A stretch of DNA of 64,000 nucleotides from the human T2T-CHM13v2.0 reference genome, Homo sapiens. A program made the translations under genes and the position numbers. Position 1 is the stretch's first letter. Each line of letters begins with the position of its first letter. The DNA lies in assembly GCF_009914755.1 (NCBI RefSeq), contig NC_060937.1, one strand, 5' to 3'. Positions 2,621-25,879 of the stretch are shown here, in pieces. The notes below the pieces were generated by a model, which worked only from the letters and a program-made list of their open reading frames with translations, had not been told where the DNA came from and searched no databases.

Positions 2621-2853
2621 TTCTTAAGTAAATGTTTTGATGTTAGAAATGAAATTTTAAAGAAACCACTTACTTACATGTCAAATTAACACATTAAAAT
2701 AATCCAAAATCATTTCCCATTTATACTTCATAAAAGCGCATTACAATATGTAAAGTATTTAAAATTTATTATGGAGAGTGGATTAGTTTAAAGGCTACTT
2801 TAGGCAGTGATCAAGACTTCTATAGGTCTGTTAAAGCAATAAGAATTTGAATG

Positions 2854-5124
2854 TCATGAGCTTAGTTTCACTAGATACAAAATTCTTGGCTTATAGTTAT
2901 TGTTTGTTTGTTTAAGCAGGCTGAAGATAGGACCCCAATCCCTTCTAGCTTGTAAGGTTTCTGCTGATAAAACTGTTGTTAATCTGATAGCTTTTCTATT
3001 GTAGGTTACCTGGAGCTTTTTCCTCACAGCTCTTAAGATTCTTTCCTTTGTCTTAACTTTAAATAACCTGATGACTATGTGCCTAGGTGATGATCTTTTT
3101 GCAATAAATTTCTCAGGTGTTTTTTGAGCTTCTTGTATTTAGATGTCTAGATCTCTTGCAAGGCTGGGAAAGTTTTCTTTGATTAATCAGTCCCTCAAAT
3201 ATGTTTTCCAAACTTTTAAATTTCTCTTCTTCCTCAGGAACACCAATTATTCTCAGGTTTGGTCAGTTAACATAATCCCAAGCTTCTTGAAGGCTTTGCT
3301 AATTTTTTTTTTGATACTTTTTTCTTTCTCTTTGGTGGACTGGGTTATTTAAAAAAACTTACCTTTGAGCTCTGAAGTTCTTTCTTCTGCTTGTTTGATT
3401 CTATTGCTGAGAATTTCCAGAGCATTTTGCATTTCTCTAAGTTCATCCTTTATATTCAAAAGTTGTGATTGTTTCTTATTTATGCTATTTCATTGAAGAC
3501 TTTTTCTTTCATATCTTGTATCTTTTTTTGATTTCATGAAGTTAGACTTCACCTTTCTTTGATGCCCCCTTGATTTGCTTAATAATTGACCTCCTGAATT
3601 CTTTTTCTGGTAATTTGTGATTTCTCCTTCATTTGGATCCATTGCTAGTGAGCTAATGTTGTCTTTTGGGGGTGTTAAAACATCTTGTTTTTTCATATTA
3701 TCAGAATTGTTTCTCTAGTTCCTTCTCATTCTGGTAGACTATGTCAGAAGGAAGATCTGGGGCTCAAGGGCTGCTGTTCTGTTCAGATTCTTTTGTCCCA
3801 TGGGGTACTCCTTTGATGTAGTGCTCTCCCCCTTTTTTGTGGCTTCCTGATAGCTGAACTGTAGTGATTGTTATTTCTCTTCTGGATCTAGCCACCTGGC
3901 AGAGCTACTGGGCTCAGGCTGCTACTGGAGGAGTGTCTGCACAGAGTCCTGTGATTTGAACCATCTTCAGGTCTCTCAGCTGTGGATACTAGCACTTGCT
4001 CTGGTGAAGGTGGCATGGGAGTTAAATGGACTCTATGAGGGTCCTTAGTTGTAGTTTTGTTTATTGCACTAGTTTTGTGCTGGTTGGCCTCCTGCCAGGA
4101 GCTACCACTTTCAAGAAAGCATCAGCTGTGATAGTATAAAGAGGATCAGGTGGTGAGTGGGGCCCTAGAGCTCCCAAGAGAATATATCCTTTGTCTTTGG
4201 CTACCAGGGAAGAGATAGTACAGAAAAACTTTCAGGTGGGGGCATGGTTAGGCATGTCTTAGCTGTTGAGGGTGAAGGTGTGGTTCTCAAGTTAATGGAA
4301 TTATGTTCCTATGTGGATTATGGCTGCCTCTGCTGTGTCATGTAGGTGGCCAGGGAAGTGAGGCAAGGCCAGCAGTTACAGGCTTCACCCAGCTTCCACT
4401 CAGCCCAAAAGGCCAGTGTCACTCCCACCATGCCTGCCACAACAGCCAGGAGTTTTTCTCCCAGCAGTGGGTGATCAGGGCTGAGAACTTGCCCCAGGCT
4501 ACCAGCCTCCTAACTGTGAAGGCACACAGGGCTTTCAGGTTTCCTGCTTCCCTGCCTGCTGCAGCTTATGTGCTGTGTCTGCACTCCAGATTCACTGCCT
4601 CCTCTGAGTTCTGCCCAGGAAACTTCACCTTGGTTCGATATTGTTACAAAGTTCAAGTGGAAGTTTCCTTCCCCCTGTGGTCTCTTCCCGGTTCCTTTGG
4701 CAGCCCTCCCCAAGGACCTATGCAAGACAACGTCAGAAATTGCTTCCCTGGGGACTGGGAGAGCTTACTGTGCTCTTCCACTGCTTCTTTACACCTGCAT
4801 TTTGCTCAGCTCTCTAAATGGTCTCAGCTCCAGGTAAGGTCAAATCCTTCTCTCATAATCTGGACTTTCAGGTTCCCCAGTGAAGGTGTTTATTTGGGAG
4901 CAGACAATCCTCTTTTCACACCTTCACATTTTGAGCACTCTCAGTTTGGGGGCTGTCTGCTGGGGCCTGCAGGAGCAATCCACTTCCTTCAAAGGGTCTG
5001 TGCATTCTCTCGGCTTTCCTGGTATGTTCCTGCAGTCGTTCTTGGAGCAAAAGTTCACGATATGTTTCCAAATGCTGCTCTGTCTGTCCAAGTGGGAGCT
5101 GCAATTTGGTCCTGCCTCCTATCC
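2854..5124 (-). mobile_element. L1PB (L1PBa-type) 5'UTR and most of ORF1; 5' half of a split element
   Basis: The minus strand begins GGATAGGAGGCAGGACCAAATTGCAGCTCCCAC, then a GC-rich 5'UTR, then ORF1 remnants (3490-3696 ORF). It ends abruptly at ...GAAACTAAGCTCATGA. Confidence 0.88.
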
Positions 5125-5268
5125 CTATAAATGAAAGACAATTATTTCTCACTGTTCTGGGGGTTGGGAGCCCAGAATCAGATTAACAGCATGGTTGGGT
5201 TCTGCTGAGGGCCCTCTTCAGGTTTCAGACTGTCAGCTTCCCATTGTAACCTCACATGGCAGAAAGAG
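5125..5268 (-). mobile_element. MLT1A-like MaLR LTR, 3' fragment
   Basis: The minus strand reads CTGCCATGTGAGG...GGGCCCTCAGCAGAACC...CCAGAACAGTGAGAAATAA. Confidence 0.75.
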
Positions 5269-6105
5269 TGTCATTAATGTTTTGATAGAAGTTTCATTAG
5301 ATCTGTAGATTGTTTTGGGTGATATAGTCAATTAAAAATATTAATTTCTGATTTGTAAGCATGGGATGTCTCCATTTGCTGGTATCCTCTTCGGTTTCTT
5401 TCATTAGTGTTCTGCAGTTTTCCCTGTAGAGGTCTTTTACCTCCTTGGCTAAATTATTCCTAGATTTTTATTTTATTTTTGTAGTTATTGTAAGTGGGGT
5501 TTCTTTCTTGATTTTAATTTTGGCTAGTTCATTATTGCTGTATAGAAACACTAATAATTTTTGTATGTTGATTTTATTTCCTGCAACTGTACTGTATTTG
5601 TTTACCAGTTCTAATAGTTTTTTAGTACAGCCTTTAGTTTTTTCTATATATAAGATTGTGTCATCTGCAAAGCAGAACAATTTGACTTCTTTTCCAGTTT
5701 GGCTATCCTTTATTTCTTTCTCTTTTTAATTGTTGTGGCTAGAATACCAAGTACTATGTTGAATAGGGGTTGTGGAAGTGGGCATCCTTGTCTAGTTCCA
5801 GTTTTTAAAGTACAGGCTTTGAATTTTTTTCCATTCAGTATGATGTTAACTATGGGTTTGTCATATATACCGTTTACTATTTTGAGGCATATTTGTTCTA
5901 TACCCAGATTTTTGAGAGTTTTCATCATAAAAGGATGGTTTTTGTTCTTGGTTTTGTTAATGTGATGGATCATGTTTATTGATTTACATATGATGAACCA
6001 TCGTTGCACTTTTGGGATGAATCCCACTTAATTATGGTGAATGATCATTTTAATATGTTGTTGAATTCTGTTTGCTAGTATTTTGTGGAAGACTTTTGCA
6101 TCTTT
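5269..6105 (-). mobile_element. L1M(A) ORF2 reverse-transcriptase fragment
   Basis: ORFs 5468-5680 (FADD motif, KLLELVNKYSTVAG) and 5710-6027 (TGTRQGCPL). Confidence 0.9.
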
Positions 6106-6123
6106 GAACTTGTTTTCTATCAT

Positions 6124-6495
6124 TGTGGTGTATTGAATTTGCATTCTCCTTATGAAGAACTAAGGGCTGCCACAGGCTGGGTTTTATCTAGGACATCAGG
6201 ACGAACATGAGGTCAGGCTCTCAGCATCAGAGTACTGGTCAAGCAGGCATAAAATGGACACAGGTCGGACAAGAGTTACAAGGGTATCTGCCAGTATAAA
6301 CAAGTTTCCCATGTGAGGGACCCCTTGGTACACAGATCAGAGAACTGGGCATCAGGTTATCTGCCAGGTGAAATAAATATCTGTGATAGACACACTGTAA
6401 AAACCCACATTCAGCTCCCCTTTACTTTCTGTTATGGCAGGGTTGCTAGCCAATCTGGTACTTGAAATTCATTTTAGCTAGAGGCTCTCAAAACA
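6124..6495. mobile_element. ERV1-like solo LTR, family not identified
   Basis: TG...CA ends (TGTGGTG...CTCTCAAAACA), higher GC than flanks, flanks tcat/tcaa resemble a 4-bp TSD. Confidence 0.55.
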
Positions 6496-9098
6496 TCAAT
6501 AGCAAGAATTATAAAAGCCCCATGGGTGGTAGTAGGTGTAAAGTAATTACTACAAACACTGTTTCTGGGGTAAGATAAATAAATCTGGATATTTTATTAG
6601 TTCTTTTTGTGCCCTTTTTGAGACCATGATAGGTTTTGTGCCCATAACCCCGAACCTCTCCAGTTAATTGAAAATTTCAGTAAACCCATCTGATACTGTC
6701 CATGCTATCGCTTGTAAAAGTATCAGAACCATATCATATTGCTAACAATTTTTTAAAACTTAGGTTTGTAATTTGCATCGAATTCTGGATAGAATAATTT
6801 TGTTCTTGGAGACAAATTTGAATTATTAGATTTTAATGCATTTTTTTAAAATGTGATATGGTTAGTAGCCCACAACTTGTGATTTCATAGGAAAATCGTG
6901 TGGGAGAAAAACTTATCTCTTAGAAGATGGGTTTCTTGCAAATGCAAGAACTAATACTTTTAATTGAGCATTTCAAAATGAAGCTTTCTTTTCTTGGTGC
7001 TATCTTTCGTGTTTTAAATATAAGAAAACTTTGTGAATTTATGTTTTCACAGAAGAAATTTAAGAAAAGTGTGCTCATATGAGTGGTAAAAGTACAGAAT
7101 AATTGCCAGATATCAGTATTAACTGGAGAAAATAAACAAACAAATATCATAGAGAGAAAGATGCTAGTCCTGTGTCTCCACAAAATACTCAGTATTTATT
7201 CATGCAGCATAGCAAATAGTCCTTAAGTATATTTTCTGGTCACTGGAGACAGATCTGAAGGCAAGAGCAAAATTATAACCTAATTAAACTTAGAAGATAA
7301 AATGTCACTAATAAGAACAAGGGTAATTATTTCATATTCTTTGAAATATACTCAGCATAAAAATTTGATACCATGAGGTTATTAAAGATAAACAATAGTG
7401 AAAGAAATAGTCATCTTCAAGTTTAATTCATGTTTACCTTATAGTTTTTAATCTATAGGAGACATATATGATTGCAAATTGGAATTTGGTAAATTTTTAT
7501 GTTAAATGATGCAAAAAAGCTTATATATAAATAATAAAAGACTTTAGGTAAATAAATCGTCTAAATAAAGTTTTAAATAACATTTTGCTAGAGATATATT
7601 TTTATGTGATGGCGAATACATGTTTAAAAGCTGTGGTCTGTAATGTAGCCTGAGTATCATTATAAGATTAAATAGAAATGCAGTTCTCAAAATATGCTAG
7701 ATTTAAATAAATATTATAATTTTATTAATAAACAAATATAGTACAATTAATTTCTGTTTTAATGGAATTTTTTTTCTGTGTCTAATCCTTTATTCAACGG
7801 TTCACTGTGAAGAAGTAATCACTGACTCCAGTCTCTTGTGTTTAGTCCTCTATTTAATTGTTCAATATCTAATATTAAGAAATAATCACCAATTCTAGTC
7901 TCCAGGTTTCCCTTGCAGTTTCAGTCACACGAAGCAACTTGCTAATGCTAATACTGTGCACCTAATTACAGACAGTGCACCTAATCCGAGTCAGCATGGA
8001 AAAGGCATGGTTTTATGCATCTGCAGGTTAACTTCTCTAAATACTAATTAGCATGTGGAATCCTTTACTACCAGTTCTAATTCAAAGTAGATGATCCATA
8101 AACACTAAGTTATTGATTGGTATGTCTGTCTGATCTGAAATTTTATTTGTAGGGAATGATATCAAAGGTCACTTTTTTTTTTAAAGTTTGTATGCACATA
8201 ATTAAACATCTCAAGTTTAATTACTAATCCTTCAATATTACAAGAGTTGCCATACCACAGCTATGATTGATGGTTGAAAAACAGCAAGTATTTACTATTT
8301 TAGTAATGCTATATAGCCAGCATTATCAACCAAATCTAAACTTGAATATAAAATATGGAGTAAAACTAAAAAATCAGTTAATTTAAAAAGATGCATTTGC
8401 TGTACATATTATATGGCAAATAAACTAGGTAACATTTCTCTGAAACCTAACTTTAATTTTTAAAAAAATTATCTTGAAATGTCTATAATGTCTAAAATAT
8501 ATTTTTGAAATTTTAAAAGTCTGAACTTACTATTTGTTAGATAAGAATTATTTTAGAAATGAAAACAAAAATCAAAATCAAATATGCTCATAAATCTTGA
8601 CAATTAATGTAAAAAAGGGCCAATCACAATGGAATTTTTTACTTGGTCCACTCCACCAGAATATCCTAAGAACATTTTTCTTGGTAAAATTAGTTTTTAA
8701 AGTTAGCAATATGAGTGTTCTTTATTTTTTCTGAGTAAAATAAAGAATAATAAATTGTGACTATTATTTCTAAAAAACAGTACACATCTCTAAACATATA
8801 AGGGAAGGATACATGTAATATACTGCAACATTCTTATTGGAATTATTTTAATCAAAGAGCTACCCTTCTTTATACTTTAATCTTTTAATTAGGCAGTGGA
8901 ATTGCCTATACTTCAATGACTGATAAGTTAAGGACATTGTGAGGGAACATATCATCATGGCTCAGTATTTCTGCCCCGATTAAAGTTAAAAAAAAAAAAA
9001 GAGGCAGAAAACATCCATCTTTGGAAACAAAGAGTATGGCTAATGGTGAGAAACTCACGTTTCACCACTACTCATACCCTTTAAAATAAATTTACCTC

Positions 9099-9431
9099 GG
9101 CCGGGCACGGTGGCTCACGCCTGTAATCCCAGCTCTTTGGGAGGCCGAGGCGGGCAGATCACGAGGTCAGGAGATAAGAGACCATTCTGGCTAACATGAT
9201 GAAACCCCGTCTCTACTAAAAATACAAAAAATTAGCCAGGCGTGGTGGCGGGCGCCTGTAGTCCCAGCTACTCGGGAGGCTGAGGCAGGAGAATGGCGTG
9301 AACCCAGGAGGCGGAGCTGCAGTGAGCCGAGATGGCGGCCACTGCACTCCAGCCTGGGTGACAGAGCGAGACTCCGTCTGAAAAAAAAAAGAAAAAGAAA
9401 AAAAGAAAAATACATACATAAATATATAAAT
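9099..9431 (+). mobile_element. AluY
   Basis: Full dimer with GAATGGCGTGAACCC diagnostic. Tail has become A/TACA/TAAA repeats. Perfect 15-bp TSD AAATAAATTTACCTC at 9084-9098 and 9432-9446. Confidence 0.95.
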
Positions 9432-11694
9432 AAATAAATTTACCTCAGCAACAGCAAAATGGATGAGGACTGAGTATTGTTGTTGTTGAATGCTCATGGA
9501 TTGAAATCCATGCAAAGAATAGGGCATTCTTTGAGTGAACTTTGTCACTTTTTATCATAAAATTTCCGTGAGCTATGTTCTACATAAGCTAGAAAAGAAA
9601 GTCATTCCTCTTTTGGCAAGGTCCTAAAGCTCCCAAAATAAGTCTACTTTTTATTTATTTACTTATTTTTATCCAAACATATTTTGCAAAATGTTTTGAA
9701 GAGGCTTGCAAATAATTTATTCTAAGTCTATAACTTTTCAGAGAAATGCCTGAGGCTCTTATTTAGGGGACTGTTAATGTAAAGTGAGCTGTTATTCATA
9801 AAGTCAAGACTAAAATCCAATATCTATGTTTCTTATTTTTTCTTTGTAATTAGATCATTTTGTATCTGTATGTATCTTTGCTATTTAAATATTTTTATAC
9901 ATGCCGTTGGCTCTACTATGATACTCACTACATCCTGTTACATAAGAAAAACATCTTATATATCTACTAAGTCAATAAAGAAACTAAATCTCAGAATGGT
10001 ACATTGTATCTGTTACTCTGAAGAATTTAAGGTTCATTTTCAGACATCTCTAAATACAGTTAATACTTTATAAAGTTTCTCTAATTGTCCAATTCGCCTA
10101 GACAAAACAACTCAGCCTCTAACTTCTGAGAAAATCTTAAGTTTTTATTTATAAAAAGCTTTAACCTTGCCAATAACAGTACAAGAAATATCATTTTTCA
10201 TCTGGCTACAGCCAGTTTCTTACGAATCTCCACAGAACTGCCCCAATTCTCTTTGTCATGAAATTGAGAAAATTGAAGCTATTTATCAGTCCCAAAGAGT
10301 AGCACGCTAGGGTGTGAGACTTTCAATGACTTTGTTTTGACCTTGTTTCCTTCGGTGATTCAACATAGGTAAAATAGGCCTGATTGGTAAAGGCTTCAAG
10401 GTCACTCTTGGTTAAGAAAAAACAAAAAATGTAAACTTATATTGATAGATCAGCTCTAGTTGAATTTGAGAAATTCTAAACTTTAAGATAAGTTAATGTT
10501 CTGTAGTTGCACAAGCTATTGGAAAAAACATTTGAAGAATAATTATAATGTTTGTTGATTTAGCTATTTCTAATTACTAATACTGATCCCTTTATGCTTC
10601 TGTTTAGTTAATTATAATGTTTTATTCTGCCATATGAATTTGACTAAAATTTGTGTGAATTCATTAAAACAAGTAGAAATTAACCTACTGAAAATGGGTG
10701 ACTGAAGTAATTTCTGTTTATGGAATCAACTTGCATCTCAGAACTCAACTAACATCATCATTCAGCATAGAGATTTTTTGACACCTTAAATTCTGAGAAA
10801 GTTGGAACCAATCCTCCTATGACCTGATAGAGTATGTTTACATGATAACACATAATTTTTGTCAACCAGTATTAAGGCAGTATAATTATCAAAATTGATG
10901 AGCAAAATTAATCAGTAATTTAAAAAATTATATTTGTTTTATTGAAATTTTTATCTGTCAATGAGATATTATTTTCTTTTGTTGAAAGAACACTAACCAA
11001 ACATTTAAAAGCTTATAGCAAATAAGTTTCCTAAGACTCTCTCACCTCCCATAAATATTTTTTAACCTTGGAATAACTTTCTTAGTGCAAAATGATAAAA
11101 GTGTTTAATAGCTGATTAATGTCACCTATCCACTTTCTTTAAAGTGTTTTTCTATTGTTTCTTTCTGTTTGTACCTTACAAAATAAATATATTCACTGTA
11201 CATAATACAAAAAACACTCAGCATTTTAAAGTGTTAGGGTTATACATTGTTGAATATTCAGGGTCATATTTCTGTCTTACGTAAATTTTAATATGCAGAA
11301 CATAACCCCTAGTTACTACAGAGCTAAGACAATAGAAAATGCTTCTTTTCCAGGGTAGAAATTGTAAGGCACTTTTCACGAATAATAACCACTGATAATA
11401 CATTTAGAAAGCTGAATTTTTAGTCTTATATGTTCTGAATAGGACTTGCTTTATTCTCAAAGGTAAAATAAATGCATTAAATATACGGTAGCTGGATAGA
11501 CGGTTGTATGAAGAAATGGAAAGAGATAGGTTGATGGATAGATTAGATAAATAAAATTTCTTATACTCTGATTTGAGTAGCTCCTTATGTTCTTTCTAAT
11601 CTATATAAGACTCTAAGGGAAAATAACAACCATCATGTTAATTAGGTTTTATTTGAATTAATAGAGGTAATTTAAAAATAGTTTTTGGTGTGGT

Positions 11695-11815
11695 CTCCTC
11701 TCTTGGCTTTGGAGCCCCCCTCCCTCTGTCTCTGTACAGAGGAGCTTCTTCCTTTTGTCTTGCCTATTGAACTCTCTGCCCCTTAAAACCAAAAATAAAA
11801 ATAAAAATAAAAAAA
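11695..11815 (+). pseudogene. Polyadenylated ERV1 LTR fragment (LTR9/MER61-like); probable retrocopy
   Basis: LTR R-region-like sequence CTTGCCTATTGAACTCTCTGCCCCTTAAAACC is followed directly by an (A5T)n tail. Degenerate flanking direct repeat. Confidence 0.6.
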
Positions 11816-12700
11816 TAATTTGTATGGTGATATAAAATTATTAATTTTAAATTACACTATTTTTAAGAGTTTACACAGGATTTTTACAACTGTCTTCAGT
11901 AATACCAAATCATTTATTACAAATCAAAATTTCCTACTTATTACAGCTAACAAGTAACATATTGAACTAGATTTTTTAGTTCTTCTGGAGTGAAACATAT
12001 TGAAAGTGTAAGTACAAAAAATTAACAACTCAAGTAAAACGTTCAGTAACATGTAGGAAACCTTTCCCTGCTGAATGTTATCATCCCTGTATTCAAGGAG
12101 TTTCTCTGAAACACAAATCTTTGCTTTGAATTTCAGTGACTCAAATTAATAAGCTTCATGAATTTGCCAGCACATATTTTGAATATTTTCCTTTAAGCTG
12201 GCACATTCCAAGAGTTTAAAAATTTGAGCCGTAAACTCTGACTGTGAATCAGAAGTTGTAATTTTTGAGGCTTGCAATAATAACCAGTAAATGAGAGTAA
12301 CCTTATGTATGTTTTTTATCTGGCAAACAGGTGTGATATAAAAATAAATGTGCCCAAATAGCAGTGTTATTTTTATCTCAATGTAATCACCTCAATATAT
12401 TATTCACAAAACTTCAGGTTTTATTTAGTTAACACATACTCTTTGCCTTGCTTATTAGTATATGAGAAAAAAAAAGGATCTTGGGAAGCACTTGCAAATA
12501 TACATCTACATATGATCAAGGTAAAGTCATTGAATCTACAAACTGACACATTTGCAAAAATAGAAAACACCTAGATGATAGAGACAAGAACTTTTAAAAA
12601 GTTAAAATTAGTAAACACACAAATAATTTGAACAGGATTCGTTTCTACAAATCCCTTCTAAAATAAATAAAATGAATGTTCAAGTTGTTAAGAACTCTAA

Positions 12701-12855
12701 TGCAGAGGATCCCTAACCTATGATGTTTCAACTTACAATTTTTCAACTTTACAAATAGTTTATTGGGATATTAAATGCATTTTCAACTTATGATATTTTG
12801 ACTTATGATGGATTTATCAGACTGTGGCCCCATTGTAAGTTGAGAAGCATCTGTA
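12701..12855 (-). mobile_element. MER47-family Tigger MITE
   Basis: The minus strand begins TA CAGATGCTTCTCAACTTACAATGGGG...AAAATGCATTTAATA. Confidence 0.75.
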
Positions 12856-12877
12856 CAGTCTTACAACTCAACCAATT

Positions 12878-13446
12878 ACAGAAGTAGCCTCTTGTTTGTA
12901 GGGGATACATCCAAAGATTCCCCAGTGGATGACTGAAACCACAAAGCATTTGGGATTTTGGATTTTCAGATTAGAGATGCTCAGCCAGTATCCATAATGC
13001 AAATATATTTTTTAAAATTTTGAATTCCAAAACACTTCTGGTCTTAAGCATTTTGACTAAGGGATATTGAACTTGTACTATTTTTTTCTATACATATGTA
13101 CCTAAGATAATGTTTAATTTATAAATTAGTTATAATAAGAGATTAATAGCAATAATTAATAGTAAATTAATTATAACAATATACTGTAATAAAGTCATGT
13201 GAATATAGTCTGTCTATATCTTTCTCAATATATCTTATTGTACTGTACTCATCCTGCTTCTTGTGATAAAGAGAGGACAGAGTGAATGATGTGAGATTTC
13301 ATCATGCTATTCAGAAGAGTGTGCAATTTAAAATCCATCAATTCCTTATTTCTGGAATTTTTCATGTAATATTTTTGGACCACAGTTGACAGCATGTAAC
13401 TAAAATCTCAGAAAGTGAAACCACACATAAGGCAGAGACTACTGTA
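12878..13446 (+). mobile_element. MER44 (Tigger7) containing a nested MER46/Tigger4 fragment (~12944-13077)
   Basis: MER44 motifs CCCCAGTGGATGACTGAAACC ... GACTACTGTA. The inner fragment ends AAGGGATATTGAACTTGTA. Confidence 0.75.
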
Positions 13447-14434
13447 CCAAATTTACAGGTCTATAAAATGTGGTATTTTACCATCTAGAACAAATGCAGT
13501 ATTTTCTTACCTCAGGTTTAAACATCATTATTCTACTTCTGTGGCCCCTTTACATCTTTTTAATTCTTATACCTTGAAGAAAATAAAGGCTCAACTCCAA
13601 TTAAGAATGGCAGGAAAGCACAGAATCTCAATGAGAAAATGCAGGAAGTGGCAGAATAGTTAAGGTGAATTCAGTTTGAAAGAGGACTTCTTTTCTGCAC
13701 TTCTGTTTTCTAATGTTCCCCAATGTGTTTGCTGTACAAAAGTTGTCTGTTTAAAGTAAATTGGCTCCTAAATGAGAGTGCTAACCTTAAGTCCTTTCAG
13801 AACCGGGGAAGGATTTTACGGGAGGCAATGGAGTATAAACGGGAACAATAGCAAGAATGAGATCTGAAGCCTTGAAAGTCCTTGGCTTGTTTGGGGGAGC
13901 AGTGTGTGATTCTAGCACAATTAAACTACACAGTGTATTTATAGCGGGTGGGCCACACTGTGAAAGGTAGTGAATTTCAGGCTGAGGAGTGGTTTTTATT
14001 TTGTTGACACTGAGAAAGGAGATAAAGAAGATTTTAGAGCAAAAGGATGCCAAAGAACCATCTGAGTTGTAAAAGAAGGTGATGACAGAATGGTGGATAG
14101 TGTATTAGTGGATGAGAAACTGAGTCAGGGAGAAGAATGAAGAGAATACTGAAGTAGTTCAGAGACAAAATTTAAAGGATTCTCTAAGGAAGTGTCACAG
14201 GAGCTCAAGAAAATGGAGAGAGGTCACAATGGGATATAAAGAGTTGAGTGAAGATTGTGGGAAATTCAAATTACCAAAATGTATCGTTTGTTATAATACC
14301 CAATCCAAATGATATGCATTGATCCAACAACTTTATTATTCTATAATCACATTTTTACTTCTTTTAGCATAAGAGTAGAAAAATAGTAAGTCTAAAAATT
14401 GGTCTAAATTTATACGTGTTGTTTAAGTGTTATA

Positions 14435-14756
14435 CAGTCATGCATCACAGTAACAGAGGTATAATTTGAGAAATGCATCATTAGGCAATTTGTCATTATG
14501 CAAATCTCATTGACTGGACTTACACAAACCTAGATACAACAGCATACTATACACTTAGCTTGTATGGCATAGCCTATTGCCCTTAGGCTACCAACATGTA
14601 TAGCACACTACTATACTGAATAATGCTGAGAATTGTAACACAGTGGTATTTGTTTAAGCACAGAAAAGTTACAGTAAAAATACTTTATAAAATCTTATAG
14701 GACCACTGTTGTATATGTGGTCATTGAACAAAACATCATTGTGCAGTGCATAACTG
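14435..14756 (-). mobile_element. Tigger3a (MER7A)
   Basis: CAGTCATGCATC...GTGCATAACTG termini; ACACAAACCTAGAT internal motif. Confidence 0.85.
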
Positions 14757-14972
14757 CTCATAAAAATTTGTTTCATATATATAATTGATGGACATATATA
14801 ATTTTGTATACATATATGCACACACACACTATATAGATATATAAACTACAGGCGTACACTATTGGTAGAGTGTTATTAACACTGTAGGAACTTAAGAAAA
14901 TGGAGTCATCAATTTGTTTTAATTTTAAAAAATATTTAACTGTCTGAATTAGAAAATAAAACATTTGCACAA

Positions 14973-14973
<1 letters not shown>

Positions 14974-15017
<44 letters not shown>
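14974..15017. repeat. (TA)n microsatellite
   Basis: About 21 perfect TA units. Confidence 0.95.
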
Positions 15018-15018
<1 letters not shown>

Positions 15019-15730
15019 CTCTCTTTGTTCTTCTTTGGGTGATGCTACCAGGCTTAGGTAGAAATACTAAAAAAAGAATGTATGAAATAAAAATGTGAAA
15101 TAAGGATGTTTACATAAAGAGATGTAATGGGAAGTAACAAAAACATAACTGAAGAAATATAATTAAATATGTATATTATGTACAGAATTATAAAAGCTGT
15201 CTCTTTATTTAAAATTTAATATTAAGAAAAACTGAAACCTTAGAAATACAAACGTGAAAGTAGATGCGGCTGAGTGATTACTGGTTGTTTTTATCCTGTA
15301 TCACTATAATAGCAAGGAATTATATAATTGAATAAATCATGAGCATTTGTATTTTTCTATGATTCTTCTTAGAGCATTAGAGGGAAGAATGTTTGCTAAA
15401 GGTTCACTTTCAATTTGCTCAAGGAGTAATAAGCAAGAGTAAATTGGAATATTACATATATTACTTAATATTATATTATTATTAATAATATTATGTTAAA
15501 TATGTATATGCATATTTAGTTTTCAATAAGTGGTAAGTATTATACTGACTACAAAGTATAAAACATTTCATCCTGTCAATGATCTTGTATTGTAGTTAGT
15601 AAGATCTTTCTATACATGTAGCTTCAATACAATATGTAATAGTATGGCCATTGATAAGATACTAAAATGTTTCCACAGCATTTTTGGTCAACAGACACTT
15701 GCTTAAGTACCTTAAATAACTCATCAATAC

Positions 15731-15805
15731 CTTCCTGTTTCCGTCCACCTTCGGGGAACGGGAATACTAGTTTGGTCTGCGCGAGAATGATGTGCAACAT
15801 GGCTC
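15731..15805. promoter_or_regulatory. Candidate compact promoter-like motif cluster (ETS, ZNF143-like, BANP-like, YY1-like)
   Basis: Five CpGs in ~45 bp of apparently non-repetitive sequence. Motifs: CTTCCTG/TTCCG, GGGAATACTAGTTT, GCGCGAGA, AACATGGC. Confidence 0.35.
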
Positions 15806-16040
15806 CAGTTCAGGTGTCCATTTTCTCCATATCTTTAAAGACTTGGACTCCATCACCTGATCTTAGATTTATAGTTTATCTAAATCCAATCTGGATTTTG
15901 AATTTGTTTTCATCAAGATTAGCATTAGGCTTATTTGAGCTGACTTTGAAGAGCACATTTTTACTTCATCTCTTCTGCTACGTTACTGTAGCATTTGATA
16001 TAGCTGATAGCACTTTTTTCCTCCTTAAAAAAGATACCCT

Positions 16041-16344
16041 GTCCAGGCGCGGTGGCTTATGCCTGTAATCCCTGCACTTTGGGAGGCCGAGGCGGATGGA
16101 TCACGAGGTCAGGAGATAGAGACCATCCTGGCTAACACGGTGAAACCCCATTTCTACTAAAAATACAAAAAATTAGCCAGACATGGTGGCGGGCGCCTGT
16201 AGTCCCAGCTACTTGGGAGGCTGAGGCAGGAGAATGGCGTCAACCTGGGAGGCGGAGCTTGCAATGAGCCGAGATCGCGGTCACTGCACTCCAGCCTGGG
16301 GGACCCAGCGTGACTCCGTCTCAAAAAAAAAAAAAAAAAAAAAA
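16041..16344 (+). mobile_element. AluY
   Basis: Full dimer with poly(A). TSD AAAAAAGATACCCT/AAAAAAGATGCTCT. Confidence 0.93.
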
Positions 16345-16774
16345 GATGCTCTTAGTTTGAAAGTTAATTTATTGGTATTTTTTTCTTCTTTCCATGTGAC
16401 CGCTTTTTTAGTTTCTTTTGCATAATCTATCCATTCAATATTGATAGCCCCTACAGTTCTGGTTTAGACTTTATTTTCTTGTTTTCAGATATAATAACCA
16501 ATATTGTAAACTATGCCAGACAACATTCTAAAGTTATTGGATATAATCTCTTTTTTAATTTTCACGACAAACCTACGAAGCTTTATTATTTTTATTTTGT
16601 ATTTTTTAAAAACTAAAATTCAGAAACGTGAAAGGTTGTGAAAATATTAAGTGACAAAGGTTAGTTTTAATGCAGGTTTTGTACCTGAAAAGCAAATGTG
16701 CTTTTCTCTAATTTATCCTGCGTAACATTCACCTCTTGCAAAGCTAGCATTTTATTCATTACCATTACGACAAG

Positions 16775-17012
16775 CCAACACTCATATAGTGCTTACTATA
16801 TGCCAGACTTTTTCTAAACTCCTTTGTATATGTTCACTTATTTAATCCTCACAACTGTGAAGTAGGTACTATTATTATTCTTGTTTTATATATAAAGACA
16901 ATGAGTCACTTAAATAATATGCCCAAGGTAACATTGCTAAAAAGTTGTAGAATTAATATCAAAGCCAACTGTGCAGTTCCAGAATCTTACCTTTAGTAAT
17001 TACCCTATACTG
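16775..17012 (-). mobile_element. MIR SINE
   Basis: GTGCTTACTATATGCCAG...TTTAATCCTCACAAC...GTAGGTACTATTATT...GCCCAAGGTAAC. Confidence 0.8.
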
Positions 17013-18141
17013 CTTTATAGAAGTTATAGCCTATATTCAATAGACATTTCAAACTCAGTATTGTAAAACTATATTTATTTTTGGCTTCTGTCTCTTACTC
17101 ACATGTTGCCATAAAAAGGATCCCTCCCAGTGTTTTTTGTCTCATTAATGAGAAAACTATCTACCCAAACCTCAAACCTGGAGTCCATTGTTAATTATCC
17201 TTAACTCTCCAATCAATGTTAACATTAGGCAAAACTTCTTATTTATATTTTAAAAATGTCAACACTAATCCTTGTGTTTTTGTATTTTTTTCCCATATAT
17301 GACAAAGATGATTCTTCATTCTTCTCTATTACTGAAAAAATCTTTTTCATTTAGTGGCCACTACAATTTAATTTTCATCTATCAAAAGGAAAAAATATTG
17401 AAAACAAATGTACAAGGATGGAACAAAAAGAGTTCTTGTTCCTTTGTATGTAGCATTGTAGTTACTTCACTTTTTTTTTTTATTGAGTTGGAGCTCAGAG
17501 AGAGAGAGAGAGATAATTATTTAAAAGGTCAGAGAAAGCTTTCCAAGAGATTATAGAACAGTCAGAGGTTTGGATTTAGGGATGCCTGGTAGCCTCTGTT
17601 ACTGTTCAGAAGAGCCAGAAAATCAAGCTAAGCCTTTTCTGAACTCTCCATAAAAAAACAAGCAAACAAATAAAACTAATAGTCTTCATCTTTGTCTTCC
17701 AGTATATTTTGTTTTTATTTCTATATCAATACTTTTTATGGTGGTTTATGCAATCCCTGCAACCACAGTAGCTGAGTTACAATGACTTCAGTAATTGTTT
17801 ATTAAATAAACAAGGCAACCATGAAACCTAAGCATGGTTACCTGTGTTAAAAGCTTCACTCTCACACTCATTTTATATCTCATCCTGTATTTCCAATTCT
17901 TCAGCAAATAATTCCAAGAGATGTTGCAAAACTTATTGAATGTTCATAAATTGAACTTGGTCACATTCAAAAGTCAAGTTAGTTCAATATTCCTGTCATG
18001 AGTGAGACAAATTTACTGAAGCCAGTTGAATACAACTGAAAGATTACATTGGATGTAATGCCATTTTAAGATAATACTTCTCAGAGGAATTAACTTTGAA
18101 GTAAATAATGAAGACTTTAATATTTTAGAAGATTATTATGA

Positions 18142-18417
18142 TTATTTTTAGAGATGGAGTCCCCCTTTGTCACCCAGGCTGAAGTGCAGTAGCACAGTCA
18201 CAGCTCACTGCAGCTTCTACCTCCAGGGTTCAAATGATCCTCACACCTCAGCCTCTCTAGTAGCTGGCACTACAGGCACACTCTACCACAATCAGCTAAT
18301 TTTTAAATTTTTGGTAGAGATGGGGCCTTGCTATGTTGCCCAGCCTGGTTTCAAGTGATCCTCCTGCCTAGGCCTCCCAAGTTATGGGATTACAGGTCTG
18401 AGCTACCATGTGCAGCC
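18142..18417 (-). mobile_element. AluJ with a small internal deletion
   Basis: CACAGCTCACTGCAGC and TTGCTATGTTGCCCAG AluJ diagnostics. Confidence 0.88.
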
Positions 18418-18640
18418 AAGAATACTTACTTCTAATAGCAATATTCATTAGACTATTATGGGCATGCATTTACTGTTGCTACTGTTATTGTTTTAGTTGG
18501 TTTTTGTTTTTGGACTCCAGCTCAAATTACACTGATTTTATGAGCATGAATGAAGAAAAGACACGATATTTTTCAGAAAAAAAAAAAGTGCTGAGAGAGT
18601 TTGCCACTATCAAGCCAGCACTACAAAAACTGCTAAAAAG

Positions 18641-19724
18641 TTTTGGGGGGAACCAGCCCCCAATATTTCAACATAGGTTCTTTTCTATTTTCCCTAAGTG
18701 TTGGCCAGTCTGAGAAATAAAGATAAGGAGTACAAAGAGAGAAATTTTACAGCTGGGCCTCTGGGGGTGATATCACGTGTTGGCAGTTTTCGTGATGCCC
18801 ACCTGAGCCGCAAAACCAGCAAGTTTTTATTACGGATTTCAAAAGGGGAGGGGGGTACGAATAGGGAGTGGGTCACAGAGATCACATGCTTCAAATGGCA
18901 ATAAAATATCACAAGGGCAGAAAGGCAGAGCAAGGTCACAAGGCCAAGGCTAAATTAGAATTACTAATGAAGTTCCATGTCCCACTGTGCACGCATTGTC
19001 ATTGATAAACATCTTAACAGGAAACAGGGTTCAAGAGCAGAGAACTGGTCTGACTAAAATTTGCCAGGCTGGCATTTCCTAATCCTAGCAAGCCTGAGGG
19101 CACTGCAGGAGACCAGGGCGTATTTCATCCCTTATTTTCAATGGCATAAGGCAGACGCCTCCAGAGCAGACATCCATAGGCCTCCCCTGGGAATGCATTC
19201 CCTTCCTAGGGTTATTCCTTACTGGGAAAAGAATTCAGTGGTATTTCCCCTACTTATTTTCTGCAGTAAGAAAAATATGACTCTGTTCTGCCCAGCCCCA
19301 CAGGCAGTCAGACCTTATGGTTATCTCCCTTGTTCCCTGAACATCACTGTTATCCTGTTCTTTCTCAGGGTGCCCAGATTTCATATTGTTCAAACACACA
19401 TGTTTTACAAACCATTTGTGGAGCTAACGCAATCATCACAAGGTCTTGAGGCGACATACATCCTCAGCTTAGGAAGATGACGGGATTAAGAGATTAAAGT
19501 GAAGACAGGCATAGGAAATTAAAAGAGTATTGATTGGGGAAGTGATAAATGTCCATGACATCTTCACATTTTATGTTCAGAGATTGCAGTAAAGGCAGGC
19601 GTAAGAAATTATAAAAGTATTAATTTGGGGAACTAATAAATGTCCATGAAATCTTCACAATTTATATTCTTCTGCCGCAGCTTCAGCAGGTTCCTCCATT
19701 CAGGGTTCCTGACTTCCCGCAACA
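18641..19724 (-). mobile_element. MER11 solo LTR (HERV-K11/HML-8)
   Basis: The minus strand starts TGTTGCGGGAAGTCAGGAACCC. Length ~1.08 kb with an internal tandem repeat (~19500-19665). 6-bp TSD aaaaag/gaaaag. Confidence 0.92.
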
Positions 19725-21617
19725 GAAAAGAGCTCTAAATCTTGAAACAAATCCACAAAATACACCAAATAGAACTTCCTTAAAGCATAAATTTCACAGG
19801 ACCTATAAAACAAAAACACTATATATAAATAAATAAATAAATAAAACACAAAGTATTCAGGCAACAAATAGCATGATAAATAGAATAGTACCTTACATCT
19901 CAATACTGACATTGAATGTAAAAGCCTAAATGCTCCACTTCAAAGATACAAAAAGTCAGAATAGATAATAATTCTCCAACCAAGTAACTGCTGTCTTCAA
20001 GAGACTCACCTAACACATGAGGACTCACATAAACTTAAGGTAAAGAAATGGAAAAAGCTGTTCCATGTAAATAGACACCAAAAGCTAGGAGGAATAGCTA
20101 TTTTTATTTCAGACAAAACAAACTTTAAAGTAAGAGCAATTAAAAAAGGACAAAGAGAGACATTATATAATGATAAAGTGACTTGTCTAACAGAAAAAAA
20201 CTACAAATTCTAAATATACATGCACCTAACACTGGAGCTCCTAAATTTGTTAAACAATTACTAATAGACCTAAGAAATGAGATAGCAGCACAATAATAGT
20301 GGGGGACTTTAATACTACACTGACAGCACTAGAAAGGTCATGAAGAGAGAAAGTCAACAACAACTATACCCTAGAACAATGGACTCAACAGATATTTACA
20401 GAACATTTTACCCAACAAATGCAGAATTTACATTCTATTAATCAGCACATGGGATATCCTCAAAGATAGACCATATTATCGGTTGCCAAATAAGTCTCAA
20501 TAAATTTATGAAAATTGAAATAATATCAAGTACTCTCTCAGACCACAGTGGAATAAAATTGGAAATCCACTCCAAAAGAAACCCTCAAAACCATGCAACT
20601 GCATGAAAATTAAAAAACCTGCTCCTGAACGATAGTTGGGTCAACAATGAAATCAAGATGGAAATTTAAAAATTCATCAAACTGAACGATAATAGCGACA
20701 CAACCTTTCAAAACCTATGGGATACAGTGAATGCAGTTCTAAGAGGAAAGTTCATAGCCTTAAATGGCTACATCAAAAAGTCTGAAAGAGCACAAATAGA
20801 CAATATAAGCTCACACCTCAAAGAACTACAGAAACGAGAACAAACCAAACCCAAACCCAGCAGAAGAAAAGAGATAATGAAAATCCGAGCAGAACTAAAT
20901 GAAATTGAAACAAAAAAATAAAAATAAAATGAAATTGAAACAAACAAAAGATAAAAGGAACAAAAAGTTGGTTCTTTGAAAAGATAAATAAAATTGATAG
21001 ACCACTAGCGAGATTAACCAAGAAAAGAAGGGAGAAGATCCAAATAAGCTCAATTAGAAAGTAAACGGGAGATATCACAACCAATACCACAGAAATACAA
21101 AAAGTCATTTAAGGCTACTATGAACAATTTTGTGCACATAAACAGGAAAACCTAGAAGAGATGGATAAATTAATGGAAATATACAACCCACCTAGATTAA
21201 ACCAGGAAGAAATAGAACCTCTTAACAGATCAATAACAAGCATTAAGATTGAAGTGGTAATTTAAAAATTGCCAACGCACAAAAAAATTGCAGTATGCAA
21301 ATCAAAACCACAAAACGATACCACCTTACTCTTGCAGGAAAGGCCATAATAAAAAAATAAAAAAAAATAGATGTTGGCAGATATGTGGTGAAAAAGAAAC
21401 ACTTTTACGCTGCTGTTGGGAATGTAAACTAGCACAACCACTATGAAAAACAATGTGGAGATTCCTTAAAGAACTAAAAGTAGGGTATCTACCCAAAGGA
21501 AAAGAAGTCATTATACGATAAAGACACTTGCACATGCATGTTTATAGCAGCACAGTTCACAAAATATATGGAACCAGCCCAAATGCCCATCAATCAGGCA
21601 GTGGATAAGAAATTGTT

Positions 21618-21758
21618 TTATACATTTTATATATATATGTGTATATAGATAGATAGATATGGAATACTACTAGAATATATTTCAGTTTATATATATATAT
21701 ATGGAATACTAGAATATATATATACACACACACACACACACATACACACACACACACA
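21618..21758. repeat. Compound (TA)n/(CA)n microsatellite inside L1PB
   Basis: TA and CA runs with duplicated ATGGAATACTA units. Confidence 0.85.
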
Positions 21759-22178
21759 CCATGGAATATGACTCAGCCATCAAAAGGAATGAAATAATGA
21801 CATTTACAACGACCTGGATGTAATTGGAGATCATAATTCTAAGTAAAGTAACTCAGGAATGGAAAACCAAATATCATAGTATGTTCTCACTCATAAGTGG
21901 GGGCTAAACTATGTGGGTGCAAAGGCATACGAATGATTCAATGGACTTTGGGGACTCAAGGAAAAGGGTGGGAGGGGGGTGAGGGATAAAAGACTACAAA
22001 TTGAGTACAGTGTATACTGCTTAGTGACAGTTGCACCAAGATCTCAGATGTCACAACTAAAGAACTTTTCCATGTAACCAAACACCAGCTGTTCCCCAAA
22101 ATCTATGGAAATAAAAAATTAAAATTAAAATAAATAAATAAAGTTACTCCTGAGAAATGAATGAATCAATCAATACAT

Positions 22179-22841
22179 AATACCTATGACATTCTTCAAG
22201 AAATAGGAAAAAAACCAATTCCGAAATTCAAATTAAACCACAGAAGAGCCTGAATAAACAAAGCAGTCCTAAGCAAAAAGAACAAAGCTGGAGATACCAC
22301 ACTACCTAACTTCAAAATATACCCTGAAGTTATAGTAACCAAAATAACATGGTATTAGTATAAAAAGCAGATGTATAGATCATGGAAATCAAGTAGAAAA
22401 CCCAGAAATACGTGTACACATTTATATACATCTGATGTTTGACACGGGTATCAAGAATAAGCCTTGAGGAAAGAATAGCCTTTTCAATAAATTGTGCTGT
22501 GAAAACTAGATATGCATAGGAAGAATGAAGCTAGAGCCCTATCTCTCACCATATAAAAATATACTTAAAAGTACTTAATATTTAAATATAAGACATCAAA
22601 CTATAAAACTTCTAGAAGAAGACATAGGGGAAACTCTTTAGGACATTAGTCTAGGCAGATTTTATGGCTGAGACTTTAAAAGCACAGGCAACTAAAACAA
22701 AAATAGACACATGCGACTACATTAAACTAAAAATCTCCTGAATAGCCAAGGAGACAATCAACAGAGTAAAGAGAATGGAAGAAAACATTTGCAAACTATT
22801 CATCCAACAGAAAACTAATATTCAAACTATACAAGGAACTC
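22179..22841 (+). mobile_element. L1M(A) ORF2 fragment continuing the 5269-6105 element
   Basis: AATACCTATGACATTCTTC...AGCAAAAAGAACAAAGCTGGAG...CAAGGAACTCA. Confidence 0.85.
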
Positions 22842-25227: not shown

Positions 25228-25686
<459 letters not shown>

Positions 25687-25879
25687 AGGAATGGTCACTT
25701 GTAATTATAGGTTTCTTCTTTTGACACGTGTCCTACAAAATTTATGTAAAACTATGGCGATTTTTGAGAGTTTTTGGAGAAAGGGTGAGGTGTTCTAGTA
25801 GGATTAGAGGGGCCCACATTCAATTCTATTTTAGTTAGAAATTGATACCAAAGACATGAGGTAATCTAAAATATATAAA

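What the first reader, a model, noticed from the sequence alone, without database searches (positions are those of the whole stretch)
2854..18549. Fossil ~15.7-kb inversion splitting one L1PB, with 5-bp inverted microhomology at both breakpoints
Seen: the minus-strand L1PB 5' half ends ...GAAACTAAGCTCATGA at 2854. The plus-strand L1PB 3' half begins CATGAATGAAGAAAAGAC at 18545. Re-inverting 2859-18544 restores a continuous ORF1 sequence, GAAACTAAGCTCATGAATGAAG. The breakpoints share TCATG (2854-2858) and CATGA (18545-18549). Independent support comes from the older host L1M, which is split the same way: the minus piece 5269-6105 stops at ...ATCAAAACATTAATGACA and the plus piece resumes at AATACCTATGACATTCTTC (22179). 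Inference: a microhomology-mediated inversion younger than the L1PB insertion, possibly lineage-specific or polymorphic. The segment is too long, and holds too much unrelated DNA, for L1 twin priming.
Basis: partly seen in the sequence, partly recalled or inferred. Interest (0 to 1): 0.8.

Follow-up and report, generated by a model that had tools for sequence, protein, structure and literature searches.

The report
Old 15.7-kb inversion splitting an L1
A 15.7-kb stretch of human chromosome 13 was flipped at some time after a LINE-1 element had landed inside an older LINE-1, cutting the younger element in two; it is a clean, base-resolved example of an ordinary kind of evolutionary rearrangement.

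Summary
Against intact L1 copies fetched from the same genome, the minus-strand L1 piece (2854-5123) and the plus-strand piece (from 18545) meet at the same reference position, with a 5-bp overlap (CATGA). This held in all 16 reference loci examined. The older host L1 is split the same way: 5269-6105 minus and 22176-22842 plus abut, with a decayed target-site duplication. Both halves of each element are equally diverged. The two best genomic matches of the 3' half are elements that also rank near the top for the 5' half. No homology links the two breakpoints, so this is not recombination between inverted repeats. The topology rules out twin priming.

The best reading is a two-break, non-homologous inversion of 2854-18544 after the L1 insertion. 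Whether the shared CATGA is microhomology or a filled-in staggered break cannot be told without an uninverted outgroup. Age and polymorphism are untested. One T2T-coordinate catalogue of human inversion polymorphisms has no call here.

- The 3' half carries a 1.08-kb LTR-like insertion and a 1.93-kb internal deletion.
- A 145-bp fragment of another repeat sits between the L1 5' end and the host L1.

It is ordinary in kind and well resolved.

The parts
2854..18544 (.). Inverted segment (15,691 bp, counting the shared 5 bp at the left end).
   Evidence: L1 and host-L1 pieces inside it lie opposite in orientation to their partners outside it, and their reference coordinates abut.
2849..2863 (.). 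Junction 1: single-copy left flank ...GAATG joined to TCATGA GCTT, the reverse complement of the L1 ORF1 sequence.
   Evidence: The left flank 2300-2853 is single-copy in the genome.
18540..18554 (.). Junction 2: single-copy sequence ...ATGAG joined to CATGA ATGAA, where the L1 ORF1 sequence resumes.
   Evidence: Window 18411-18544 is single-copy in the genome.
2854..5123 (-). 5' part of the younger L1: from about 10 nt inside the canonical 5' end to the middle of the ORF1 C-terminal domain.
   Evidence: 76-83% identity over about 2.3 kb to intact copies. The 5' end matches the common start of five full-length copies. The last 94 codons hit Pfam Transposase_22 and Tnp_22_dsRBD, profile positions 1-33 of 65.
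5124..5268 (-). 145-bp internal fragment of a dispersed repeat of about 365 bp. It fills the gap between the L1 5' end and the host L1.
   Evidence: 644 first-look candidates; 39 non-self matches were scored, at 76-85% identity. The full element is about 360 bp in other loci.
5269..6105 (-). Upstream piece of the older host L1 (ORF2 region). Window 5269-5284 is one copy of the target-site duplication.
   Evidence: 66-71% identity to the reference copies, ending at L023 position 6311. Alignment.
18545..18640 (+). Continuation of the younger L1 ORF1 directly after the break.
   Evidence: Reference coordinates continue from the minus piece.
18641..19724 (-). LTR-like insertion of about 1.08 kb inside the L1. 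It is flanked by AAAAAG and GAAAAG and contains a 90-bp internal tandem duplication.
   Evidence: 87-91% identity to 39 scored copies, with sharp ends. Flanks. Duplication.
19725..21287 (+). Younger L1: end of ORF1 and the 5' part of ORF2.
   Evidence: Matches L021 3370-4852 and equivalents.
21288..22143 (+). Younger L1 3' part, after an internal deletion of about 1.93 kb, ending in an A-rich tail (about 22109-22143).
   Evidence: The reference coordinate jumps, L024 4849->6778 and L025 5043->3110. Sequence.
22176..22842 (+). Downstream piece of the older host L1. Window 22176-22191 is the second copy of the target-site duplication.
   Evidence: Starts at L023 6321 and L025 3920. 16-bp overlap, 11 of 16 identical, with the last 6 exact. 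Similarity score reached by 7 of 5000 random 48-mers.

Best explanation
The history has three steps.
1. A near-full-length L1 of the L1P type inserted, plus-oriented, into the ORF2 region of an older L1 and made a target-site duplication. It carried 145 bp of another repeat fused to its 5' end.
2. Later the chromosome broke at two places. One break was inside the L1's ORF1 C-terminal domain, at the palindromic hexamer TCATGA. The other was in single-copy DNA 15.7 kb upstream.
3. The intervening segment was rejoined in reverse orientation by non-homologous end joining.

This carried the L1 5' part, the fused repeat fragment and the upstream half of the host L1 to the far end, on the opposite strand.

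The five bases CATGA now stand at both junctions in inverted orientation. There are two equally good readings. The L1 break may have been staggered by 5 nt and both ends filled in. Or the other site may already have carried (T)CATG, and the palindromic tetranucleotide let both junctions anneal. The inversion itself is shown. The joining chemistry is inferred.
For: The L1 break:
- The pieces abut in reference-copy coordinates with a 5-bp overlap in 11 of 11 loci and 5 of 5 loci.
- The 5' piece stops in mid-domain: Tnp_22_dsRBD profile positions 1-33 of 65.

The host L1:
- Its pieces abut with a 16-bp overlap typical of an L1 target-site duplication.
- The repeat score of 29 is reached by 77 of 5000 shuffles and by 7 of 5000 random 48-mers from the window.

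Same element, same age:
- K2P distance to the same references is 0.17-0.20 for the 5' half and 0.15-0.19 for the 3' half.
- For the two host-L1 pieces it is 0.32-0.34 and 0.34-0.38.
- The two best non-self genomic matches of the 3' half are the elements that rank second and fourth among non-self matches for the 5' half.

The L1 5' end is joined to its natural upstream flank, so insertion was complete before the flip.

Within 2 kb either side of the two breakpoints there is no similarity beyond 12-bp exact words, and every E value is 0.78 or higher.
Against: No uninverted allele or outgroup was seen, so the ancestral state is reconstructed from repeat continuity alone. The breakpoint outside the L1 lies in single-copy DNA, so no third repeat could confirm it, and loss or gain of sequence there is unknown. 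The target-site duplication is decayed (5 mismatches in 16). Subfamily names are untested. A misorientation in the assembly cannot be excluded from the sequence alone.
Confidence: 0.92

Rival explanations
1. The inversion arose by a replicative template-switching mechanism (FoSTeS/MMBIR type) that used the CATG microhomology, rather than by two double-strand breaks and end joining.
For: The same short palindromic motif lies at both junctions. A palindrome is the one kind of microhomology that can serve both joins of an inversion.
Against: No duplicated or triplicated flanking segment is visible. By my recollection, not a call, such segments usually accompany replicative inversions. Self-comparison of the region shows only Alu copies and one weak L1 match. 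The L1 side is balanced apart from 5 bp.
Confidence: 0.08
2. The structure arose during L1 integration itself, through twin priming or an integration-associated rearrangement, and not afterwards.
For: The inverted piece is the upstream part of the L1 and its 3'-most base lies at the outer edge, as in twin priming.
Against: About 13.4 kb of non-L1 DNA separates the pieces. The L1 5' end is joined to the upstream half of the host L1, which carries the matching target-site duplication, and that half is inverted with it. In twin priming, by my recollection, the duplication flanks the internal break point and the two L1 parts are directly joined.
Confidence: 0.02
3. Two unrelated truncated L1 insertions happen to end at the same consensus position.
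For: None beyond the abundance of L1 fragments.
Against: Three coincidences would be needed at once: ends matching within 5 bp of about 6,500, the host L1 pieces also abutting with a duplication, and equal divergence of the halves. A minus-strand 5' piece with no 3' end and no tail is not a product of normal L1 integration (established knowledge, recalled).
Confidence: 0.01
4. Recombination between inverted repeats (NAHR, or retrotransposon recombination-mediated inversion) produced the flip.
For: The region holds several Alu copies.
Against: Sequences on either side of each junction are unrelated. Within 2 kb either side of the two breakpoints the best matches are 12-bp exact words, with E values of 0.78 or higher. 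One breakpoint lies in single-copy DNA.
Confidence: 0.01
5. The segment is misoriented in the assembly and the human chromosome is really collinear.
For: Only one assembly was available here.
Against: The 5-bp overlap and the clean single-copy joins are not what a mis-join at repeats looks like. The three supplementary files of the paper on inversions in the T2T assembly hold no number beginning 5461-5464.
Confidence: 0.02

Closest known systems
Human-chimpanzee inversions with a retrotransposon at only one breakpoint (Lee et al. 2008, PMC2603318; passages read)
   Same: One breakpoint lies inside an L1 and the other in DNA independent of repeats. That paper reports 41 L1-associated and 22 Alu-associated cases and suggests microhomology as a possible cause.
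   Different: Those cases were found by two-species comparison and are younger than the human-chimpanzee split. This one is inferred from a single genome by repeat continuity and is undated. It does not appear in that paper's two small supplementary files, which seem to cover only part of its loci.
Staggered-break model of inversion with inverted duplications at the breakpoints (Ranz et al. 2007, PMC1885836; abstract and passages read)
   Same: A stretch of the ancestral sequence is present at both ends of the inversion in inverted orientation, as expected if staggered breaks are filled in before end joining.
   Different: In Drosophila the duplications are genes or other long non-repetitive sequences. 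Here the duplication is 5 bp and could equally be pre-existing microhomology.
L1 twin priming (Ostertag and Kazazian 2001; recalled, not read here)
   Same: The upstream L1 part is inverted relative to the 3' part, and the break falls at one L1 coordinate with a few bases of overlap.
   Different: The pieces lie 15.7 kb apart. Host DNA, including half of the target L1 with its duplication, is inverted along with the 5' part.
Retrotransposon recombination-mediated inversion (RRMI; Lee et al. 2008, PMC2603318)
   Same: An L1 lies at an inversion breakpoint and little or no sequence is gained or lost.
   Different: RRMI needs two homologous elements in inverted orientation. None is present here.

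Membership tests
Two-break non-homologous chromosomal inversion | Two parts of a once-continuous sequence lie in opposite orientation, with abutting coordinates, at the two ends of the segment. | tested here: met
   L1 pieces: 11 of 11 loci and 5 of 5 loci; base-level alignment.
Two-break non-homologous chromosomal inversion | An independent marker inside the segment is inverted relative to its partner outside. | tested here: met
   Host L1 pieces abut with an overlapping duplication.
Two-break non-homologous chromosomal inversion | No extended homology between the two breakpoint regions. | tested here: met
   nothing better than 12-bp exact words, with E values of 0.78 or higher.
Two-break non-homologous chromosomal inversion | An uninverted ancestral allele is observed in an outgroup or in the population. 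| not testable with these tools
   Only this genome can be searched. Supplements of the ape, primate and macaque papers could not be read.
Microhomology-mediated joining | The same short sequence was present at both ancestral sites before the rearrangement. | not testable with these tools
   Only the derived junctions are seen. A filled-in staggered break gives the same picture.
L1 twin priming | The inverted and direct L1 parts are directly joined within one insertion flanked by a target-site duplication. | tested here: not met
   The pieces are 15.7 kb apart, and the duplication-bearing host flank adjoins the L1 5' end and is itself inverted.
NAHR / retrotransposon recombination-mediated inversion | Breakpoints lie within a pair of homologous inverted repeats. 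| tested here: not met
   No repeat library is available. What was shown is that both halves match the same full-length copies of about 6.5 kb at 76-86% identity and hit L1 ORF1 Pfam domains.

The most novel reading that the evidence does not exclude
The flip happened on the human lineage after the split from chimpanzee, or still segregates in people. It would then be an uncatalogued, base-resolved small inversion in a gene desert, about 11 kb from an annotated enhancer. The evidence does not exclude this. The event can fall anywhere in the time since the L1 inserted, and the catalogues I could read are either incomplete for events of this size or were searched with an approximate coordinate conversion.
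Probability: 0.06. Interest if true: 0.45.

Novelty: new member of a known kind. Interest (0 to 1): 0.25.

Why it matters
The finding matters modestly.
- It shows that nested-repeat continuity alone can recover an old balanced inversion to the base from a single genome, including its breakpoint signature.
- Such events make clean phylogenetic markers for primates.
- This breakpoint is a useful case for separating staggered-break fill-in from palindromic microhomology once an uninverted ortholog is read.
- No gene is affected, and the nearest annotated enhancer lies outside the segment.

Tried and rejected
Steps that failed or gave nothing:
- Self-comparison of the window gave no L1 reference.
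- I looked for a third split repeat at the non-L1 breakpoint, but both flanks are single-copy.

Catalogue searches:
- Porubsky 2023 (PMC10150506): Table S1 is in T2T coordinates. None of the three supplementary files holds a number beginning 5461-5464, and the table does list chr13 calls.
- Feuk 2005 (PMC1270012), supplementary file 2: no chr13 entry at 54.6-55.1 Mb. My conversion of T2T coordinates to that old build is a rough estimate from memory, so this is weak.
- Lee 2008: the supplements do not mention chr13.
- Supplements of the ape T2T paper, the primate structural-divergence preprint and the macaque Strand-seq paper could not be read.
- HGSVC 2025 supplement (PMC12350169): 24 numeric hits. 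This is inconclusive.

Pfam:
- The 40-aa stretch after the break gave no hit at E up to 1.

Considered and dropped:
- The L1's 1.93-kb deletion covers the part of ORF2 that the host L1 pieces represent. I considered that this might signal recombination between the two. I dropped the idea because the host pieces are about twice as diverged and lie outside the L1's tail.
Full report
**What is in the sequence.** At 2854-2859 the plus strand reads TCATGA, followed by GCTTAGTTTC. On the minus strand this is the end of an L1 ORF1 sequence. At 18545 the plus strand reads CATGAATGAAGAAAAG. The window is human T2T chromosome 13, and its own genome could be searched, so I used intact L1 copies from elsewhere in that genome as a coordinate system in place of a repeat library.

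**The L1 halves abut.**
- A search with the minus-strand piece (window 3650 down to 2854) gave 39 non-self matches at 81-84% identity, out of 4,795 first-look candidates. None extends beyond query position 793 of 797, which is window 2858.
- I compared the 11 loci kept from that search with the window. The minus piece aligns up to 2858-2861 in 11 of 11. The plus piece aligns from 18545 in 9 of 11, from 18549 in one and from 18582 in one.
- In every locus the two alignments meet at the same place, for example L012 2284 and 2286, or L016 1501 and 1499.
- Five 10-kb stretches holding full-length copies gave the same result: L021 3279|3283, L022 3284|3286, L023 3283|3285, L024 3281|3287, L025 6643|6642.
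- The base-level alignment shows the references reading AAGCTTCATAAATGAAGG. The minus piece ends AAGCT-CATGA and then turns into unrelated sequence. The plus piece starts from unrelated sequence with CATGAATGAAG.
- Both CATGA copies therefore correspond to the same five reference bases. The pieces abut with a 5-bp overlap.
- The last 94 stop-free codons of the minus piece hit Pfam Transposase_22 (E 7.6e-14) and Tnp_22_dsRBD at profile positions 1-33 of 65 (E 2.8e-11). The break lies in the middle of the ORF1 C-terminal domain. The 40-aa stretch after the break gave no hit.

**Same element, same age.**
- K2P distances to the five references are 0.17-0.20 for the 5' half and 0.15-0.19 for the 3' half.
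- An independent genome search with the 3' half found best matches of 83-84%. The top two non-self matches are the elements that rank second and fourth among non-self matches for the 5' half.
- The five references share a common start at about 981-1017 of their stretches and run for about 6.5 kb. The window's element reaches that start at about 5123, short of it by roughly 10 nt.

**The host L1 is split the same way.**
- Window 5280-6103 (minus) matches L023 6311 down to 5421. Window 22190-22842 (plus) matches L023 6321-6987. In L025 the figures are 3930 and 3920. Identity is 66-71% and K2P is 0.32-0.38 for both pieces, so this is a much older element.
- The alignment shows that the two pieces overlap by 16 bases, 5269-5284 on the minus strand and 22176-22191 on the plus strand. 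Eleven of the 16 are identical and the last six are exact.
- A gapped alignment extends the similarity to about 30 bases with score 29. That score is reached by 77 of 5000 shuffles and by 7 of 5000 random 48-mers of the window.
- This is what a decayed L1 target-site duplication looks like. The younger L1 had therefore inserted completely, with its 5' end joined to its natural upstream flank, before anything was inverted.

**Why it is an inversion and not something else.** Flipping 2854-18544 would at once place the L1 5' part directly before 18545 and the upstream host piece directly before the L1.
- Twin priming does not fit. About 13.4 kb of other DNA lies between the pieces, and the flank carrying the duplication adjoins the L1 5' end and is itself inverted.
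- Recombination between inverted repeats does not fit. Within 2 kb either side of the two breakpoints there is nothing better than 12-bp exact words, with E values of 0.78 or higher. The non-L1 sides of both junctions are single-copy in the genome.

**The breakpoint signature.** The pentamer TCATG occurs at about 0.0012 of positions in the window, so a 5-bp coincidence at a blunt join would be rare. Two readings remain.
1. The L1 was cut with a 5-nt stagger and both ends were filled in before joining. This is a miniature of the staggered-break model proposed for Drosophila inversions (PMC1885836, abstract and passages). It needs no matching sequence at the other site.
2. The other site already carried (T)CATG. 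Because CATG is its own reverse complement, four ends with that overhang could be joined in either orientation, which gives both junctions without loss.

The derived sequence cannot separate these. A replicative template-switch origin is possible but less likely, since I see no duplicated flanks.

**Age.** The inversion is younger than the L1 insertion. Pairwise K2P of 0.15-0.20 among copies implies roughly 35-45 million years, if copies diverged independently from a common source at about 2.2e-9 substitutions per site per year. That rate is recalled, so this is a rough inference. Nothing in the sequence gives a lower bound.

**Catalogues.**
- The T2T-coordinate table of inversion polymorphisms in 41 genomes (PMC10150506) holds no number beginning 5461-5464, though it lists other chr13 calls.
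- The 2005 human-chimpanzee list (PMC1270012) has no chr13 entry at 54.6-55.1 Mb of its build. My coordinate conversion is approximate, so this is weak evidence.
- The tables most likely to settle the matter could not be read. The HGSVC supplement was inconclusive.

**Comparison with what is known.** Lee et al. 2008 (PMC2603318, passages) describe 41 L1-associated and 22 Alu-associated human-chimpanzee inversions in which the retrotransposon spans only one breakpoint, and they suggest microhomology. The present case is of that kind but undated, and it was found without a second genome. I therefore rate it as a new member of a known kind, correct and well resolved but not surprising.

**Corrections and extras.**
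- The plus-strand L1 is not continuous. A 1.08-kb LTR-like element sits at 18641-19724, flanked by AAAAAG and GAAAAG.
- About 1.93 kb of ORF2 is missing at about 21287.
- Between the L1 5' end and the host L1 lies a 145-bp internal fragment of a dispersed repeat of about 365 bp. From memory it looks like a MaLR-type LTR.
- That fragment is joined to an L1 lacking about 10 nt of its canonical start. This suggests a template switch or a chimeric source transcript rather than a plain 5' transduction. I did not test this further.

Noticed in passing
window 5124-5268 (minus strand): A 145-bp internal fragment of a dispersed repeat of about 365 bp sits exactly between the L1 5' end and the target-site duplication. 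There were 644 first-look candidates; 39 non-self matches were scored, at 76-85% identity. The L1 lacks about 10 nt of its canonical start. This suggests a chimeric cDNA (template switch) or a source transcript that began in that repeat. None of the 39 scored non-self matches continues into L1 sequence.
   Followed up: partly
window 18641-19724: An LTR-like element of about 1.08 kb is inserted in L1 ORF1. It has TG...CA-type ends on the minus strand and is flanked by AAAAAG and GAAAAG. It contains a 90-bp internal tandem duplication (19486-19578 and 19576-19669). It is 87-91% identical to 39 scored copies out of 2,825 candidates, so it is younger than the L1. From memory it resembles HERV-K-type LTRs. 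I only observed it and built no consensus.
   Followed up: partly
window about 21287/21288: The younger L1 lacks about 1.93 kb of ORF2 (reference L024 4849 to 6778), which includes the reverse-transcriptase region. The join lies just after an A-run. Whether the deletion predates insertion is unknown.
   Followed up: partly
window 22144-22175: 32 bp rich in AATG/AATC units lie between the A-rich tail and the 16-bp duplication. They may be tail microsatellite, a short 3' transduction, or part of a longer gapped target-site duplication of about 30 bp.
   Followed up: partly
window 30860-31347: A weak (64%) inverted match to the L1 ORF1 region 2907-3402 indicates another old L1 ORF1-like fragment. 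It overlaps one of the two RefSeq 'enhancer' intervals given by the hub.
   Followed up: no
window 9076-9446, 16039-16354, 18115-18418, 25372-25694: Four Alu-like copies. The two inside the inverted segment at about 9.1 kb and 16.0 kb are in one orientation. The one ending 127 bp before junction 2 is in the other orientation and more diverged. None lies at a breakpoint.
   Followed up: no
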